7,397 nt of DNA, taken from the UHGV virus genome UHGV-0204592, one strand, 5' to 3'. The DNA is from a virus. A model generated the notes under the pieces. That model was not told the DNA's origin. It made no database searches and saw nothing but the letters and a program-made list of their open reading frames with translations. A program made the position numbers and the translations under genes. Positions 262 through 6,802 of this stretch are shown here, one piece after another (the stretch's first letter is position 1; each line of letters begins with the position of its first letter).

Positions 262-274
262 TGTATGCACGATT

Positions 275-306
275 CCCCGGCCCCAGGTATTATCTAGGGG
301 CCGGGG
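275..306. other. GC-rich hairpin (10-bp perfect stem CCCCGGCCCC / GGGGCCGGGG, 12-nt loop) in a 173-nt GC-rich non-coding island
   Basis: Read directly from the sequence. No U-tract follows on either strand, so it is not a typical terminator. An overlapping alternative hairpin GGGGA-TACTCCT-TCCCC spans 303-319. Confidence 0.6.
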
Positions 307-434
307 ATACTCCTTCCCCTTGATTGCTGATTGGTGCCAGGTTCCTGGCGGTCGCGGTTCATCATGTCCCGGATGCACCTACGGTGTCGCGGATATGGGA
401 AATGTGTTACAGATTATAAGAAAGTAGTGGTTGG

Positions 435-656
435 ATGAAAATTGAACTTACGGAACGTGAATTACGATACCTTAACCGGGTAGTAAACGTCCGTCTGGAT
501 GAATTATTGGAACGTTGCGCCAGGATATGCCGTATTCGTTCCCTTGATGATATAAACACGTCAGAGCGTTTCAGCATTGCGGAATCTGAAATCAAGGTTT
601 TGAAATCAGTTCATGATAAGGTTGCTGATGCTCTTTCGGATTCTTCTTTGTCATAA
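435..656 (+). CDS. Hypothetical helical protein (73 aa)
   Basis: Intact ORF beginning at an ATG. It is predicted to be all-helical and charged, with no signal peptide or TM segment. The SD is weak (GGTTGG). It lies between the GC-rich island and the pIII-like gene. Function unknown. Confidence 0.5.
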   Translation: MKIELTERELRYLNRVVNVRLDELLERCARICRIRSLDDINTSERFSIAESEIKVLKSVHDKVADALSDSSLS

Positions 657-717
657 CAGATGTACTATCCACTTAATAAAATAAAGTAACTATTCCTAAT
701 AAGTCTAGTTTAACGAA

Positions 718-725
718 TAGTTAGT
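718..725 (+). repeat. TAGTTAGT motif, copy 1 (upstream of the pIII-like gene)
   Basis: An exact 8-mer. The context is AATAGTTAGTTAC. Confidence 0.6.
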
Positions 726-783
726 TACAAATTAAGCATTGATTAGTACATCTTTTAACAATTTGTTAGGGGGTGTATTTTTT

Positions 784-3919: not shown

Positions 3920-4078
3920 ATGTTTGGGATTCTTCCGGTCTTTTGGGATTTCTTCTTCTCCCCTCTCCTGGCCTTTGATATAGATAGTCCTATTTTTGCG
4001 CCTATTGCTTTATGTCTGGTTGTCCTTTGTGTATTCCGCTTTGTCAGGAGGATATTTTCATGGTGTTTTTCGTTTTGA
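3920..4078 (+). CDS. Small hydrophobic protein (52 aa)
   Basis: The track ORF 3860-4078 begins at a GTG. The first ATG with an SD (GGAGG at 3909-3913, 6 nt upstream) is at 3920. The sequence is MFGILPVFWDFFFSPLLAFDIDSPIFAPIALCLVVLCVFRFVRRIFSWCFSF. The 3' end overlaps the ATPase gene start. Confidence 0.45.
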   Translation: MFGILPVFWDFFFSPLLAFDIDSPIFAPIALCLVVLCVFRFVRRIFSWCFSF

Positions 4079-4824
4079 TTATCCTGTTTTTTATTCTTTT
4101 CATTGGGTACCATTTAATTCGCTATCGTAATCCCTATAAATTAATCATGGTCATAGGTAAAAAAGGCTCTGGTAAAACCACGTTAATGGTCAAACTATCG
4201 TTGAAGTATAACAAGAGGAAACGGCCTGTGTTCTGCAATGCTCCTGACATTCCTGGTACATATTACTTTGAGCCTGAAATGTTGGGTTCTGTCGGTTTCC
4301 CGGAAAACGCAATCATTATGGTTGACGAGGCTTCCAGGTATTGGGATAACCGTGATTTTAAGAATTTTCAGAAGAAGACCTTTGACTATTTCCGTTTCCA
4401 GCGGAAATACCGTCATACGGTTTATCTATTTTCCCAAAGTTTTGATGTTGATAAGAAACTTAGGGACCTTACGGACCGAATGTATTTAGCGACTAATGTC
4501 TTTAATGCATTTTCAGTTGCCAGGGGTATTGCCAAGGCTCCCACGATTACCCATGCGGATTCTAACCAGGCTGGTGAATCTAAACTTGTGGATGATATAC
4601 ATTTTGAGAGCCTGCTTCTGTTCTGGGCCGGCTCTGTCCGTATTACTTATCTGCCAAAGTATATAAAATACTTTAATTCGTTTGACCCTCCTTATCTTCC
4701 AGAAGGTCAATTTACATATACGCCATTCATCAAGCGGAAACGAAGGGCCCCCGCCTGTGGCGGGCCCGTAGTTGAAGCGATAGAGGATAAAATGGATGAT
4801 GACTTCGGACCCCCGTCTAATTAG
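4060..4824 (+). CDS. Zot/pI-like morphogenesis ATPase (254 aa) with an N-terminal TM anchor
   Basis: Walker A motif MVIGKKGSGKTTL and Walker B motif AIIMVDEAS. The N-terminal region resembles the Zot/pI N-domain, for example M13 pI MAVYFVTGKLGSGKT. The start was chosen at ATG 4060 (SD AGGAGGA at 4046-4052, 7 nt upstream) rather than the track's ATG at 4012, which has no SD. An alternative start at 4147 would begin exactly at 'MVIGKKGSGKT' but has no SD. There is no C-terminal TM or periplasmic domain. Confidence 0.7.
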   Translation: MVFFVLIILFFILFIGYHLIRYRNPYKLIMVIGKKGSGKTTLMVKLSLKYNKRKRPVFCNAPDIPGTYYFEPEMLGSVGFPENAIIMVDEASRYWDNRDFKNFQKKTFDYFRFQRKYRHTVYLFSQSFDVDKKLRDLTDRMYLATNVFNAFSVARGIAKAPTITHADSNQAGESKLVDDIHFESLLLFWAGSVRITYLPKYIKYFNSFDPPYLPEGQFTYTPFIKRKRRAPACGGPVVEAIEDKMDDDFGPPSN

Positions 4825-4835
4825 GTCCGAAGTCC
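4801..4835. other. Perfect 11-bp hairpin GACTTCGGACC / GGTCCGAAGTC enclosing the ATPase stop codon in its 13-nt loop
   Basis: Read directly from the sequence. It is followed by a second 7-bp hairpin ACTTTGT / ACAAAGT (4850-4873), then TTT, then the rep RBS. Confidence 0.6.
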
Positions 4836-4891
4836 TGAAAAATTCTTTCACTTTGTAGTATTCTTCACAAAGTTTTAGGAGGTATTCCCTT

Positions 4892-5812
4892 ATGCTTTAT
4901 TATTACAATCCATTGATTGAGGACGGTATATTTTACTCTTGTGATTCCCTTCGGTTCTCTTTTGTTTTCCCAGATGCGGACACAGTAGAAGATTTCCTTA
5001 CCTTCCTCTCCCGCCTTCCCGGCTCCACCCATTACCAGTCCTTAAAGGATTTTGATTACAGATACCTTTATGTGTTTGGTATTAAAGGATTGAGTTTCAG
5101 TATCGGCCTTTGTATGAATGGGATTAAAAAGGAAACCGTCTTACAAGGCTTTTTGGATTTTAACCCTAATAAGATACTCGGTGATATATCCTATGGCAAT
5201 GGATTTATGGGTACGGTTCATTCCCCGTTTAGTAATGAGGAATCTTCCTACAAGGATTTAAGGTGTCAGATAAAAGAGATTCTGATGGAGGTTATGGAAA
5301 ACCTTTGGTCATGTACGGAAGAAATAAGAATCAAACGTTGGGATTTAGCTGTGGATGTTCCGTATGGTCGCGATTGTGTCCAGCTTATCAAGGATAACAG
5401 GAAATACAGTCAGTTTTATAAATCGGCTCAGGATTTTACAGAGTATTTAGGGTCTATGTCAAGTCCAGGACGTGTGAAGATTTACAATAAACAGATTGAG
5501 GCGGAATTGGACTATCCCCTCACCCGGATTGAAGTCACATTGGATAGCTTGGATTTCATTGACTGTTGCCGATGCTGGCCCAATGTCTATACCCGTAAGG
5601 TAATCGACCTGGCAGAAACCAAGGTCATTGTGCAGTTGCTTTCGGAGCAACCAGTAGATAGGATGGATTATTATCTCCGTCAGATGTCGGCCCCTACGAA
5701 ACGTAGATACAAGGCCCTGCTCCTGGAACGTCCCTTTGAGGTTACAGGTCCTGTCTTTAACAAGTTGCGGAATCAGTTATTGAGATATCAGGAGGGGGAT
5801 TTTTATGAATAG
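4892..5812 (+). CDS. Rolling-circle replication initiator, Rep_trans (pT181 RepC / CTXphi RstA) family, 306 aa
   Basis: SD AGGAGG at 4877-4882. From memory, the segment 'GRVKIYNKQIEAELDYPLTRIEVTLD' aligns with the pT181-family active-site region '...RIYNKKQERKD...WRVEIELKRD', whose Tyr is the nicking residue. Here that residue is Tyr198, codon TAC at 5483-5485. The upstream motif 'KRWDLAVDVPYG' resembles the conserved acidic metal-binding motif of the family. Confidence 0.7.
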   Translation: MLYYYNPLIEDGIFYSCDSLRFSFVFPDADTVEDFLTFLSRLPGSTHYQSLKDFDYRYLYVFGIKGLSFSIGLCMNGIKKETVLQGFLDFNPNKILGDISYGNGFMGTVHSPFSNEESSYKDLRCQIKEILMEVMENLWSCTEEIRIKRWDLAVDVPYGRDCVQLIKDNRKYSQFYKSAQDFTEYLGSMSSPGRVKIYNKQIEAELDYPLTRIEVTLDSLDFIDCCRCWPNVYTRKVIDLAETKVIVQLLSEQPVDRMDYYLRQMSAPTKRRYKALLLERPFEVTGPVFNKLRNQLLRYQEGDFYE

Positions 5813-5984
5813 ACCAGTTGGGAAAATCAAGGTCAGTGCATATCTTACTAAGAAGCAGTATAACCAGCTTTGCCGATACATGGAATATTGTGGGTGCTAT
5901 TCCACCTCTGCGGAACTGGTTACCAGGTTTGTATCGATTGGCCTGGCTGATGCCGTCAAGCGTGGGGTAATTGATGATGATTAG
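5805..5984 (+). CDS. Small ribbon-helix-helix-like protein (59 aa), translationally coupled to rep
   Basis: Hand-translated as MNRPVGKIKVSAYLTKKQYNQLCRYMEYCGCYSTSAELVTRFVSIGLADAVKRGVIDDD*. The ATG overlaps the rep stop, and SD GGAGGGGG lies 6-8 nt upstream. The predicted beta-strand (KIKVSAYL) followed by two helices fits an RHH/CopG-like fold. It is below the track cutoff. Confidence 0.4.
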   Translation: MNRPVGKIKVSAYLTKKQYNQLCRYMEYCGCYSTSAELVTRFVSIGLADAVKRGVIDDD

Positions 5985-6060
5985 TAACACATGGTTGCCC
6001 TGGCTCCAGCTGTGATGGGAAACAGCCTGCAGGAAAATTGTGTTACATAGATAAAGATAT

Positions 6061-6092
6061 CCCCGGCATAGTGCCGGGGATTTTGTTGTTAT
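6061..6092. terminator. Bidirectional rho-independent terminator between convergent transcription units
   Basis: Perfect 8-bp GC stem CCCCGGCA / TGCCGGGG with a 3-nt loop (TAG) at 6061-6079. It is followed on the + strand by ATTTTGTTGTT and on the - strand by a TTTAT-rich run. It sits exactly between the end of the + operon (5984) and the end of the - strand 77-aa gene (6089). Confidence 0.75.
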
Positions 6093-6322
6093 TCTACCTT
6101 TGGTAAAATTCCTTTAGCCTCCATTACTTCTACCAGTGTGTCCATTCCGTCATTTATGTGATGAATTTCTTTTCTGATGGAACGTTCTGAGGTTTTCATG
6201 TCCAGTCTTAGTGTATCCATCTGGATTTTTAGTTCTGATATTTGTAAGTCTATATCCTCTAGTTTGTTTGTAATCGGTGCTAATAGTGTTTTCATTGTTT
6301 CTAACATCTCTTTATCTGTCAT
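6089..6322 (-). CDS. Small coiled-coil protein (77 aa), function unknown
   Basis: Strong SD on the minus strand (AAGGAGGA, 8 nt before the ATG). The sequence is MTDKEMLETMKTLLAPITNKLEDIDLQISELKIQMDTLRLDMKTSERSIRKEIHHINDGMDTLVEVMEAKGILPKVE, predicted all-helical with a heptad-like pattern. It is co-oriented with, and downstream of, the repressor gene. Confidence 0.6.
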   Translation of the reverse strand: MTDKEMLETMKTLLAPITNKLEDIDLQISELKIQMDTLRLDMKTSERSIRKEIHHINDGMDTLVEVMEAKGILPKVE

Positions 6323-6429
6323 TTTGTTGTCCTCCTTGATATTCTACTTACATCATATCATTAAAATCCATTCTCGTCCATCCTGGTGCGTTACAGGGGG
6401 TTATTTATCTTTTGTATTGATGTAATCAC

Positions 6430-6774
6430 TTAGCCGTATAATCTTTTCTCTTCCGTGTCATTATGTTGTGTTTCTCCTTCAAGTAAGTTCATATAGGCTT
6501 CTAACAGTGCTTTTTTATTGTTATCGTATTTTCTATATTTGGATATGATTTCTTTTTCTTTTGGTGTGTATTCCGGTTTTTTTAGTTCAAATAATTCATC
6601 CGATGATATACCAATATATTGTAATACTAATACAAATTTATCCATTGCTGGTTTTGTTCCGTTTTTCCAGCTTGATAATGTTGTTTGTCCTATTCCTGTT
6701 GCTTTGCTTACTTGATATGCGGATATTCCTTTTTCTTCCATTATTTTGAAAAGTTTTGATATATAATTTTCCAT
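6430..6774 (-). CDS. XRE-family (Cro/CI-type) HTH transcriptional repressor, 114 aa
   Basis: Canonical HTH_XRE signature ISAYQVSKATGIGQTTLSSWKNGTKP. The start was set at ATG 6772-6774 (SD GGAG 6 nt upstream on the minus strand). The track's extra 4 residues begin at a TTG. It is divergent from the main rightward promoter. Confidence 0.75.
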   Translation of the reverse strand: MENYISKLFKIMEEKGISAYQVSKATGIGQTTLSSWKNGTKPAMDKFVLVLQYIGISSDELFELKKPEYTPKEKEIISKYRKYDNNKKALLEAYMNLLEGETQHNDTEEKRLYG

Positions 6775-6802
6775 GTTTTGCTCCAAAATATTGAATTAAC
6801 TA

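What the first reader, a model, noticed from the sequence alone, without database searches (positions are those of the whole stretch)
262..434. GC-rich structured non-coding island after gene V; candidate (+) origin or packaging signal with a pT181-like 'TACTCCT' loop
This 173-nt island is far more GC-rich than the genome. It contains a perfect 10-bp stem CCCCGGCCCC/GGGGCCGGGG (275-306). An overlapping alternative hairpin GGGGA-[TACTCCT]-TCCCC (303-319) has a loop resembling the pT181-family nick loop CTACTCT|AAT. A direct repeat GTCGCGG occurs at 351-357 and 384-390. No ORF has translation signals here. This is a natural candidate for the double-strand origin nicked by the Rep_trans protein, or for the packaging signal, or both.
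Basis: partly seen in the sequence, partly recalled or inferred. Interest (0 to 1): 0.7.

Follow-up and report, generated by a model that had tools for sequence, protein, structure and literature searches.

The report
Portable single-strand DNA hairpin module
The GC-rich non-coding stretch after the DNA-binding-protein gene of this gut filamentous phage is real and conserved, but it is not where the replication protein nicks; it is a portable hairpin module, shared with very common 1.5-kb mini-plasmids, that most likely starts second-strand DNA synthesis.

Summary
There is an 11-bp perfect hairpin at 274-307, a possible small hairpin at 303-319, and a GTCGCGG repeat whose second copy lies at 386-392, not 384-390. 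GC is 54% against 40% for the genome.

The (+) origin reading fails. A pT181-type nick hairpin lies elsewhere, at 4801-4834, 58 nt upstream of the Rep_trans gene. Its loop, CCCGTCTAATTA, is conserved as YTGTCTAATAA in relatives that carry ten different compensating stems. An inverted repeat follows it.

The island (262-~400) follows the gene V-like gene in at least six Lachnospiraceae inovirus lineages. Its first hairpin covaries, and its 3' half is conserved in sequence.

The same cassette sits just after rep, on the same strand, in very abundant 1.5-1.7 kb circles. These encode only an unrelated HUH Rep and a small RHH protein.

It is not the attachment site, a tRNA, an Rfam family, a terminator or ssoA.

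Best reading (about 0.45, inferred): a new type of single-strand (minus-strand) origin used by host priming enzymes. The first hairpin may also serve as the packaging signal. A packaging signal captured by satellite plasmids is the main rival (about 0.25).

The parts
262..400 (+). The conserved island proper (the intergenic module after the gene V-like gene). Positions 401-434 are a scar plus a linker to ORF73.
   Evidence: nhmmer and covariance-model hits cover about 255-396. In the L042-type phage, homology with the mini-circle starts 10 nt after the gene V stop and ends before the next gene.
274..307 (+). Hairpin H1: arms 274-284 and 297-307, loop AGGTATTATCTA
   Evidence: Covariation: (pairs 4, 5, 6 and 8 change on both sides across lineages); 94% of cells paired, 4 of 11 pairs with double changes, covariation score 0.166 against 0.067 in shuffles (0 of 500 shuffles as high).
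303..319 (+). It overlaps H1 by 4 nt.
   Evidence: Present in the sequence but not in the minimum-energy folds. Relatives can form small hairpins here, but in different registers, so it is not established.
306..327 (+). Conserved unpaired motif RATAYCC...CCCTTGAYTRC (GATACTCCTTCCCCTTGATTGC)
   Evidence: Alignment A3. Also kept in L014/L057, L015 and the second prophage of L077, where the rest of the island differs.
336..349 (+). Hairpin H2, GCCAGG-TT-CCTGGC. It is specific to some lineages.
   Evidence: One double change, in L077 (GCCAGA/TCTGGC), and G-T wobbles in L065 and L072. Paired in 82% of cells, with no double change among the 5 modelled pairs. Absent in L003 and the L042 type.
344..392 (+). 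Sequence-conserved 3' half: imperfect direct repeat CCTGGCGGTCGCGG (344-357) and CCTACGGTGTCGCGG (378-392), flanking CATCATG (360-366)
   Evidence: Conserved as CGR..CRTCAW.....GG...CTAYG..GCGR in phages and mini-circles. No consistent helix covers it.
397..410 (+). Scar GGGAAATG|TGTTAC. The near-identical relative L077 carries a 56-nt insertion here, which is part of a 61-nt hairpin element.
4801..4834 (+). Outside the finding: the likely (+) origin nick hairpin, GACTTCGGACC-CCCGTCTAATTA-GGTCCGAAGTC. The predicted nick is between T4818 and A4819, by analogy with pT181.
   Evidence: (z -5.2).
4850..4873 (+). Outside the finding: inverted repeat ACTTTGT-N10-ACAAAGT downstream of the nick hairpin. 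It is a candidate Rep-binding site, like ICRIII.
   Evidence: Read. Every relative has a different inverted repeat at this position.

Best explanation
The island is a cis-acting module that works in the single-stranded (+) form of the genome. Most likely it is the complementary-strand (minus-strand) origin, the counterpart of a plasmid sso or of the Ff (-) origin.

Proposed mechanism:
1. After infection, or after rolling-circle displacement, the (+) strand folds here.
2. Folding gives a very stable GC-rich hairpin (H1, 274-307), in some lineages a second hairpin (H2), and unpaired motifs of conserved sequence (CCCTTGAYTRC, CATCA, CTACG, the GCGR repeats).
3. Host enzymes recognise this fold and lay down a primer. 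The enzyme could be RNA polymerase, primase or a primosome; which one is unknown.
4. The single strand is then converted to the double-stranded replicative form.
5. H1, whose shape is conserved but whose sequence is not, may in addition serve as the morphogenetic (packaging) hairpin, as in the Ff intergenic region.

Shown here: the structure, its conservation, the covariation of H1, the constant strand and position, and the sharing of the module with unrelated rolling-circle replicons. The nick site is shown to lie elsewhere.

Inferred: the priming function itself.
For: 1. The Rep_trans nick site is elsewhere, so the phage still needs a (-) origin and a packaging signal.

2. The island follows the gene V-like gene in at least six phage lineages whose flanking proteins are only 30-50% identical. 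These are the window group, L012/L069, L051, L055, L042/L063 and the second prophage of L077. It is always on the coding (+) strand.

3. H1 is kept by compensatory changes and folds significantly in six lineages (z -2.8 to -5.5).

4. The unpaired motifs are conserved in sequence across lineages whose phage proteins have diverged. This fits recognition by a conserved host factor.

5. The same cassette lies directly downstream of rep, on the same strand, in 1.5-1.7 kb circles.
- These circles encode only an HUH Rep (PF23343) and an RHH protein.
- One such Rep is indexed in 524 blocks of the collection, nearly all on contigs under 2 kb.
- Such minimal rolling-circle replicons need a dso, a rep gene and an sso.
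- sso cassettes are known to be shuffled among unrelated plasmid families and to be host-specific (PMC5703833).

6. In the commonest mini-circle type, H1 is weak but the 3' half is kept. This points to the sequence-conserved part as the shared function.

7. L014, L057 and L015, which come from other genera, keep the 5' motif but carry a different GC-rich 3' module. This resembles the host-specific sso types.
Against: - There is no functional test.
- No promoter-like -35/-10 arrangement is visible in the folded strand, and no RSB or CS-6 is present (sequence). The priming enzyme therefore cannot be named.
- Folding energies show no preference for the + strand over the - strand.
- The island is 2.9 kb from the nick site, not next to it as in Ff and many plasmids.
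- Everything listed in favour also fits a packaging signal captured by satellite plasmids.
- The imperfect direct repeats could be binding sites for a protein on duplex DNA.
Confidence: 0.45

Rival explanations
1. The island is a packaging (morphogenetic) signal. It, or its hairpin H1, is the hairpin left free of the gene V-like protein and recognised by the phage assembly proteins. On this reading the 1.5-1.7 kb circles are satellites that captured it in order to be exported by the phage.
For: - H1 is a stable (+)-strand hairpin whose shape, not sequence, is conserved, as for Ff-type packaging signals (own knowledge).
- There is one (+)-strand copy per phage genome.
- The mini-circle type L073 carries a copy 95-97% identical to that of the L042/L063/L078 phages, while nothing else is shared.
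- A rolling-circle plasmid acting as an inovirus satellite has been described (bioRxiv 10.1101/2023.11.28.569023).
Against: - The commonest mini-circle type has a weak, AT-rich H1 but keeps the 3' motifs.
- L015, whose Zot-like assembly ATPase is the closest to the window's among these loci (73%), lacks a strong H1 (z -0.3) and has a different 3' half.
- The mini-circles appear in far more samples than the phages.
- The larger relatives of the mini-circle Rep that were examined (49-54% identical) sit on elements with an integrase and FtsK-like or DUF87 proteins, not in phages.
Confidence: 0.25
2. One reading: the island is the double-strand (+) origin, nicked by the Rep_trans protein in the TACTCCT loop or in the H1 loop.
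For: - The island contains hairpins in a phage whose Rep is a true Rep_trans protein. The profile hits RepD-type structures 4cwc and 4cwe at E 2e-8, and the catalytic motif VKIYNKQIE aligns with IRIYNKKQE.
- TACTCCT weakly resembles CTACTCT.
Against: - The H1 loops and the small-hairpin loops are not conserved and lack TCT/AAT.
- A hairpin with loop YTGTCTAATAA lies 28-76 nt upstream of rep in 21 of the 33 loci examined. Among them there are ten different stems. The loci without it include the most distant relatives.
- The closest match to the pT181 sequence CTACTCTAATAG, verified, is at that hairpin and not in the island.
- The island also occurs in replicons without any Rep_trans gene.
Confidence: 0.03
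3. The island acts at the RNA level, as a structured part of the gene V to ORF73 transcript (processing site, stabiliser, or translational control of ORF73). Alternatively, it is a duplex-DNA binding site for a regulator that uses the imperfect direct repeats.
For: - The structure is on the coding strand, so it is also present in the mRNA. The RNA fold has z -2.2.
- Two conserved direct repeats lie 34 nt apart.
- In the mini-circles the island lies between the rep stop codon and a terminator hairpin, so it would be a 3' untranslated region.
Against: - No Rfam family matches, even at E up to 1.
- No terminator-like site lies in the island.
- The neighbouring genes differ between phages (gene V and ORF73) and mini-circles (rep and a terminator). 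A role in controlling a particular gene is therefore unlikely.
- No DNA-binding protein is shared by both kinds of replicon.
Confidence: 0.17

Closest known systems
Single-strand origins (sso) of rolling-circle plasmids of Gram-positive bacteria (ssoA, ssoU, ssoT, ssoW, ssoL)
   Same: - About 130-160 nt, non-coding and strongly structured on the displaced strand.
- Fixed orientation.
- Variable position relative to rep.
- Moves as a cassette between replicons with unrelated Rep proteins.
- Variants appear to follow the host (PMC5703833).
   Different: - No RSB (TTATGCCGAGAAAATTT): 0 matches with up to 3 mismatches.
- No CS-6 (TAGCGT) in the window.
- No blastn similarity to any PLSDB plasmid beyond chance.
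- Found in filamentous phages of Lachnospiraceae.
- The priming enzyme is unknown.
Ff (f1/M13/fd) intergenic region: packaging-signal hairpin followed by the (-) origin hairpins
   Same: - A stable hairpin conserved in shape is followed by a stretch conserved in sequence, in a non-coding region of the (+) strand of a filamentous phage.
- The order of the elements resembles packaging signal then (-) origin (own knowledge of Ff).
   Different: - The (+) origin is not adjacent. It lies 2.9 kb away, upstream of rep.
- There is no sequence similarity.
- The Rep protein is Rep_trans, not gpII.
- No -35/-10-like hairpin promoter is recognisable.
pT181/pC221 double-strand origin (ICRII nick hairpin plus ICRIII Rep-binding repeat)
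   Same: This matches the element at 4801-4873, not the island.
- The hairpin presents TCT/AAT at its tip.
- A variable inverted repeat follows it.
- The Rep protein has the RepD-like catalytic motif (PMC4797284).
   Different: - The island has no such loop.
- In the phage the origin lies upstream of rep, whereas in pT181 it lies inside the rep gene (PMC5703833).
pDolos, a rolling-circle plasmid that is a satellite of Shewanella inovirus Dolos
   Same: A small rolling-circle replicon with its own Rep coexists with an inovirus. The cited work proposes that such a plasmid could gain packaging simply by acquiring a short packaging-signal region (10.1101/2023.11.28.569023).
   Different: - Packaging of the gut mini-circles has not been shown.
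- The hosts are Gram-positive.
- The shared region here is the whole intergenic module, 150-159 nt at 95-97% identity.

Membership tests
pT181-type double-strand origin (Rep_trans dso) | A hairpin whose loop presents the conserved nick core (CTCT/AAT in pT181) | tested here: not met
   The island loops are AGGTATTATCTA and TACTCCT, and they vary among relatives. The feature is met instead at 4801-4834, with loop CCCGTCTAATTA, which is conserved with ten different stems. The pT181 sequence was checked.
pT181-type double-strand origin (Rep_trans dso) | Always occurs together with a Rep_trans gene | tested here: not met
   The island also occurs on circles whose only Rep is an HUH protein of family PF23343.
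pT181-type double-strand origin (Rep_trans dso) | Nicked or relaxed by the cognate Rep protein | not testable with these tools
   This needs purified Rep and DNA substrates.
ssoA-type single-strand origin | Conserved RSB sequence TTATGCCGAGAAAATTT (PMC4598088) | tested here: not met
   0 matches in the window with up to 3 mismatches.
ssoA-type single-strand origin | CS-6 (TAGCGT) in a terminal loop | tested here: not met
   There is no TAGCGT or TAGCGA in 262-434. Some relatives have TAGCGA in place of GTCGCGG, but not in a loop.
Single-strand origin in the general sense (any type) | A structured non-coding element on the displaced (+) strand, in fixed orientation relative to rep | tested here: met
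   All phage and mini-circle copies lie on the strand that encodes rep and gene V. The H1 fold is significant and covaries.
Single-strand origin in the general sense (any type) | Removal or inversion causes accumulation of single-stranded DNA; the element supports primer synthesis on single-stranded DNA | not testable with these tools
   Requires experiments.
Filamentous-phage packaging signal | A single stable hairpin on the packaged strand in a non-coding region | tested here: met
   H1 at 274-307. There is one (+)-strand copy per phage genome. This feature is not specific to packaging signals.
Filamentous-phage packaging signal | Necessary and sufficient for encapsidation, in one orientation only | not testable with these tools
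   Requires experiments.
Phage attachment site (attP) | Lies at the phage-host junction of integrated copies | tested here: not met
   The junctions fall after GTCTAGTTTAACGAATAGTTAG (window 703-724). This sequence is a direct repeat at both ends of the L015 prophage. The published junction primers map there (PMC10061712).
Intrinsic terminator, Rfam RNA family, or tRNA | A hairpin followed by a T run; or a match to a covariance model | tested here: not met
   No terminator-like site lies in the island. There are no Rfam hits at E up to 1 and no tRNA or tmRNA.

The most novel reading that the evidence does not exclude
The very abundant 1.5-1.7 kb HUH-Rep circles of the human gut are satellites of Lachnospiraceae filamentous phages. 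On this reading they have captured, and still exchange, the phage's whole intergenic module, which combines the second-strand origin and the packaging hairpin. This lets them be exported in phage particles. The island would then be the handle by which plasmids hitch-hike on Gram-positive inoviruses.
Probability: 0.2. Interest if true: 0.75.

Novelty: new variant of a known kind. Interest (0 to 1): 0.55.

Why it matters
Filamentous phages of Gram-positive gut commensals such as Enterocloster were shown only recently to be produced in culture and in the gut (PMC10061712). That paper does not mention intergenic regions, hairpins or a packaging signal, and I found no description of these elements elsewhere.

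This work places three of these elements:
- the likely (+) origin, upstream of rep;
- the attachment site, in the AT-rich region;
- a third conserved element after gene V, which is the best candidate for the (-) origin and/or the packaging signal.

The third element matches no described sso type. It is shared, at up to 97% identity, with a family of tiny rolling-circle replicons seen in hundreds of metagenome assemblies.

If it is an sso, it is a new class that could extend rolling-circle vectors to Lachnospiraceae. If it is a packaging signal, it identifies natural phagemids in the gut. Either way the question can be tested directly with a 140-nt fragment.

Tried and rejected
- tRNA fragment or attP in the island: ARAGORN finds nothing, and the prophage junctions lie at 703-724.
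- Known RNA family: no Rfam hit at E up to 1.
- Similarity to deposited phages or plasmids: megablast of the whole genome finds nothing. blastn of the island gives only chance hits of 27-45 nt.
- ssoA: no RSB and no CS-6.
- Ordinary promoter or terminator: nothing on the + strand in the island. One promoter-like match on the minus strand at 441-413 is not conserved in relatives and is within chance expectation.
- Coding potential: rejected because close relatives differ by frame-breaking insertions and deletions.
- Consensus folding of a plain MAFFT alignment failed because the arms of H1 were out of register. It was replaced by a hand register and a covariance-model alignment.
- Helices in the 3' half (CATC/GATG, CACC/GGTG): no consistent covariation.
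- The small 303-319 hairpin: relatives can form small hairpins here, but with the conserved RATAYCC sequence in different structural positions. The apparent compensatory change between the window and L001 comes from slippage in a run of T and C.
- Strand asymmetry of folding energy: uninformative. The mean difference is +0.25 kcal/mol, and 10 of 25 sequences favour the + strand.
- First pattern scan of viral contigs: one position was mis-specified and it missed the L001 group. It was corrected for the metagenome scan.
- Larger elements with a related HUH Rep (L100, L102-L106): they carry an integrase and FtsK-like or DUF87 proteins and have no island.

Full report
**What the window is**

The 7,397-base window is a complete or nearly complete genome of a filamentous phage (inovirus) of Gram-positive gut Clostridia. 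Its main genes are:
- a gene V-like gene at 1-261, with a weak match to the RstB single-strand-binding family (phrog_929, E 1.9e-5);
- a Zot/pI-like assembly ATPase at 4060-4824;
- a 306-residue Rep at 4892-5812;
- a divergent HTH repressor at 6430-6786 on the minus strand.

Pfam alone barely sees Rep_trans in the Rep protein (E 0.097). A profile of 27 homologues hits the RepD-type structures 4cwc and 4cwe at E 2e-8. In that alignment VKIYNKQIE lines up with the catalytic IRIYNKKQE, and FNPNK lines up with FNPNK.

Relatives at 75-88% Rep identity are the prophages of Enterocloster and Clostridium porci. [quoted passage not shown] That paper does not mention intergenic regions, hairpins or a packaging signal.

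**The observation**

- The perfect inverted repeat is 11 bp (274-284 and 297-307) with a 12-nt loop.
- The small hairpin at 303-319 exists but overlaps the first by 4 nt. The minimum-energy folds do not use it.
- The GTCGCGG repeat lies at 351-357 and 386-392.
- GC is 0.54 for the island against 0.40 for the genome, which puts it in the top 0.7% of windows.
- The genome has three perfect inverted repeats of at least 10 bp, against 0.15 expected by chance.
- The region is not coding. Close relatives differ by single-base insertions and deletions along its length.

**The (+) origin is elsewhere**

A hairpin lies 58 nt upstream of rep: GACTTCGGACC-CCCGTCTAATTA-GGTCCGAAGTC (4801-4834; z -5.2). It was found in 21 of the 33 loci examined. 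These include a relative with only about 30% Rep identity; the loci that lack it include the most distant relatives (24-28% identity).

In those relatives the stem sequence changes completely. Ten versions were seen, among them TGTTTGCCCC, CATTGCCCCT, GACTTACCC, AATGAAATCCCG, CGGCCCC and TGTTACCCC. The loop stays YTGTCTAATAA.

This is the architecture of the pT181 origin, whose sequence AACCGGCTACTCTAATAGCCGGTT I checked against pT181 itself (NC_001393). There the nick falls in CTCT/AAT at the tip of the ICRII hairpin, and a plasmid-specific repeat, ICRIII, binds Rep just downstream (PMC4797284; the exact nick position is from my own knowledge).

In the phage, a different inverted repeat follows the hairpin in each lineage. 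In the window it is ACTTTGT-N10-ACAAAGT at 4850-4873.

The island has nothing equivalent. Its loops vary and lack TCT/AAT.

**What the island is**

The island follows the gene V-like gene in the window's own group and in at least five more distant lineages. In those lineages gene V is only about 30-40% identical and Rep 45-50% identical. They are L012/L069 (Enterocloster lavalensis), L051, L055, L042/L063 and a second prophage in L077.

Its anatomy, from 5' to 3', is:
1. a stable GC-rich hairpin, H1;
2. an unpaired pyrimidine-rich motif, RATAYCC...CCCTTGAYTRC;
3. in some lineages, a second hairpin, H2 (336-349);
4. a sequence-conserved stretch with two imperfect direct repeats (CCTGGCGGTCGCGG and CCTACGGTGTCGCGG) around CATCATG.

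H1 is a real conserved structure.
- It folds significantly in six lineages (z -2.8 to -5.5).
- When the arms are put in register from the 3' arm, pairs 4, 5, 6 and 8 change on both sides between lineages. Single changes give G-T wobbles.
- On a covariance-model alignment, 94% of cells pair and 4 of 11 pairs show double changes.
- The covariation score there is 0.166 against 0.067 in shuffles (0 of 500 as high). Versions with the partner slid by 1-3 columns fall to 0.006-0.096. That alignment was fitted to the structure, so it leans towards it.

H2 is weaker. It shows one double change (L077) and two wobbles, and it is absent in L003 and the L042 type. No helix explains the conserved 3' half, so it is probably read as sequence.

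Three more distant phages (L014, L057, L015) keep the 5' motif. They replace the 3' half with another GC-rich module.

**What it is not**

- It is not the attachment site. Integrated copies end after GTCTAGTTTAACGAATAGTTAG (window 703-724), which is repeated at both ends of the L015 prophage.
- It is not a tRNA or an Rfam family.
- It is not a terminator.
- It is not an ssoA, because it has no RSB and no CS-6.
- It has no similarity to deposited phages or plasmids beyond chance.

**The key clue**

A pattern scan of metagenomes found the island on tiny contigs as well as in phages.
- L066, L073 and L082, and by profile search L089-L096, are circles of about 1.5-1.7 kb. Their terminal repeats of 30, 115, 141 or 270 nt show that they are circular.
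- They encode only a 309-310 residue HUH Rep (PF23343; motifs WHLHGFL and YVTKYITK) and a 72-84 residue RHH protein.
- The island lies directly after rep, on the same strand, before a terminator hairpin.
- In the L073 type it is 95-97% identical to the island of the L042/L063/L078 phages over 150-159 nt, and nothing else is shared.
- In the phage, this shared stretch begins 10 nt after the gene V stop codon.
- In the commonest type (L092), H1 is weak and AT-rich, but the 3' motifs are kept.
- These circles are very common. One Rep sequence is indexed in 524 blocks of the collection, almost all on contigs under 2 kb.
- The larger relatives of that Rep that were examined (49-54% identical) sit on elements with an integrase and FtsK-like or DUF87 proteins, and these have no island.

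**Interpretation**

The cassette is shared by replicons with unrelated initiators. It is always on the displaced strand. It is retained in a replicon that has room for little beyond a dso, a rep gene and an sso. Its unpaired motifs stay constant while phage proteins diverge. All of this is what a single-strand (minus-strand) origin read by host enzymes should look like. sso cassettes are known to move between plasmid families and to be host-specific (PMC5703833).

By analogy with the Ff intergenic region, the shape-conserved H1 could also be the packaging hairpin, and the sequence-conserved half the (-) origin proper. That analogy rests on my own knowledge.

I give the sso reading about 0.45. 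It is an inference. No promoter-like fold is visible, the priming enzyme cannot be named, and the folding energies show no strand preference.

The main rival, at about 0.25, is that the island is the packaging signal and the mini-circles are satellites. A rolling-circle plasmid acting as an inovirus satellite is known (10.1101/2023.11.28.569023). Against this reading:
- H1 is weak in the commonest circles;
- L015 has the most similar assembly ATPase (73%) but no strong H1;
- the circles are found far more widely than the phages.

RNA-level or duplex-DNA regulatory roles together get about 0.17.

**Novelty**

The phage family is known, and so is the general kind of element (sso or packaging signal). 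This particular module fits no described sso type, and I found no description of it. Its sharing with an abundant family of mini-replicons also appears to be new. I rate it a new variant of a known kind, of moderate interest.

Noticed in passing
window 4801-4873: Likely (+) origin of the phage. A hairpin with loop CCCGTCTAATTA (a pT181-like TCT/AAT core) lies 58 nt upstream of rep, and an inverted repeat ACTTTGT-N10-ACAAAGT follows it. Relatives carry ten different compensating stems with the same loop.
   Followed up: yes
window 5984-6046 (remnant at 397-410); L003, L008, L013, L005, L065, L077 and others: A 61-nt hairpin element, (G)TAACAC...GGCTCC...GTGTTA(C), occurs up to four times per related genome with differing interiors. 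The window has one full copy after ORF59. Where the near-identical relative L077 has a 56-nt insertion flanked by GGGAAATG, the window has only a scar. The element may be a mobile or unstable palindromic element, or a repeated protein-binding hairpin.
   Followed up: partly
window 657-783 (core 703-724): An AT-rich intergenic region with the inverted repeat AACTATTC...GAATAGTT contains the attachment core GTCTAGTTTAACGAATAGTTAG. Prophages end exactly here, and the core is repeated at both ends of L015. The phage encodes no integrase, so a host recombinase, or integration of a folded single strand as in CTXphi, may be involved.
   Followed up: partly
L066, L073, L082, L089-L096 (whole contigs): A very abundant family of 1.5-1.7 kb circular replicons in gut metagenomes. 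They encode only an HUH Rep (PF23343) and a small RHH protein, and they carry the island after rep. They may be plasmids or inovirus satellites.
   Followed up: partly
window 423-436; L073 1687-1700: GTAGTGGTTG[GA]ATG follows the island both in the phage, where it overlaps the ORF73 start, and in the 1.7-kb circle. GTAGTGGGATGCC recurs in L014, L015 and L057. There is no obvious Shine-Dalgarno sequence for ORF73. The meaning is unknown.
   Followed up: no
window 435-656 (ORF73): This small protein with no family match is about 85% identical across the Enterocloster phages. That is higher than gene V (74-78%) and Rep (about 80-83%) in the same loci. It is always the last gene before the attachment site.
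   Followed up: no
L077, reverse-complement coordinates 6045-6440: A second, divergent gene V homologue (32% identical) lies 5.3 kb from the first on the same contig, followed by its own island variant (H1 stem GCTGGCTG/CAGCCAGC). This suggests two different inovirus prophages close together.
   Followed up: partly
L015 8770-8800: A stretch resembling the 3' end of a tRNA (GGCTGGTTCAATTCCGGCCCTCGCCA) lies between gene V and the island-like motif of this prophage.
   Followed up: no
window 6059-6081: A perfect 10-bp hairpin, ATCCCCGGCA-TAG-TGCCGGGGAT, followed by a T run, lies between the convergent ORF59 and ORF77. It is probably a bidirectional terminator.
   Followed up: no
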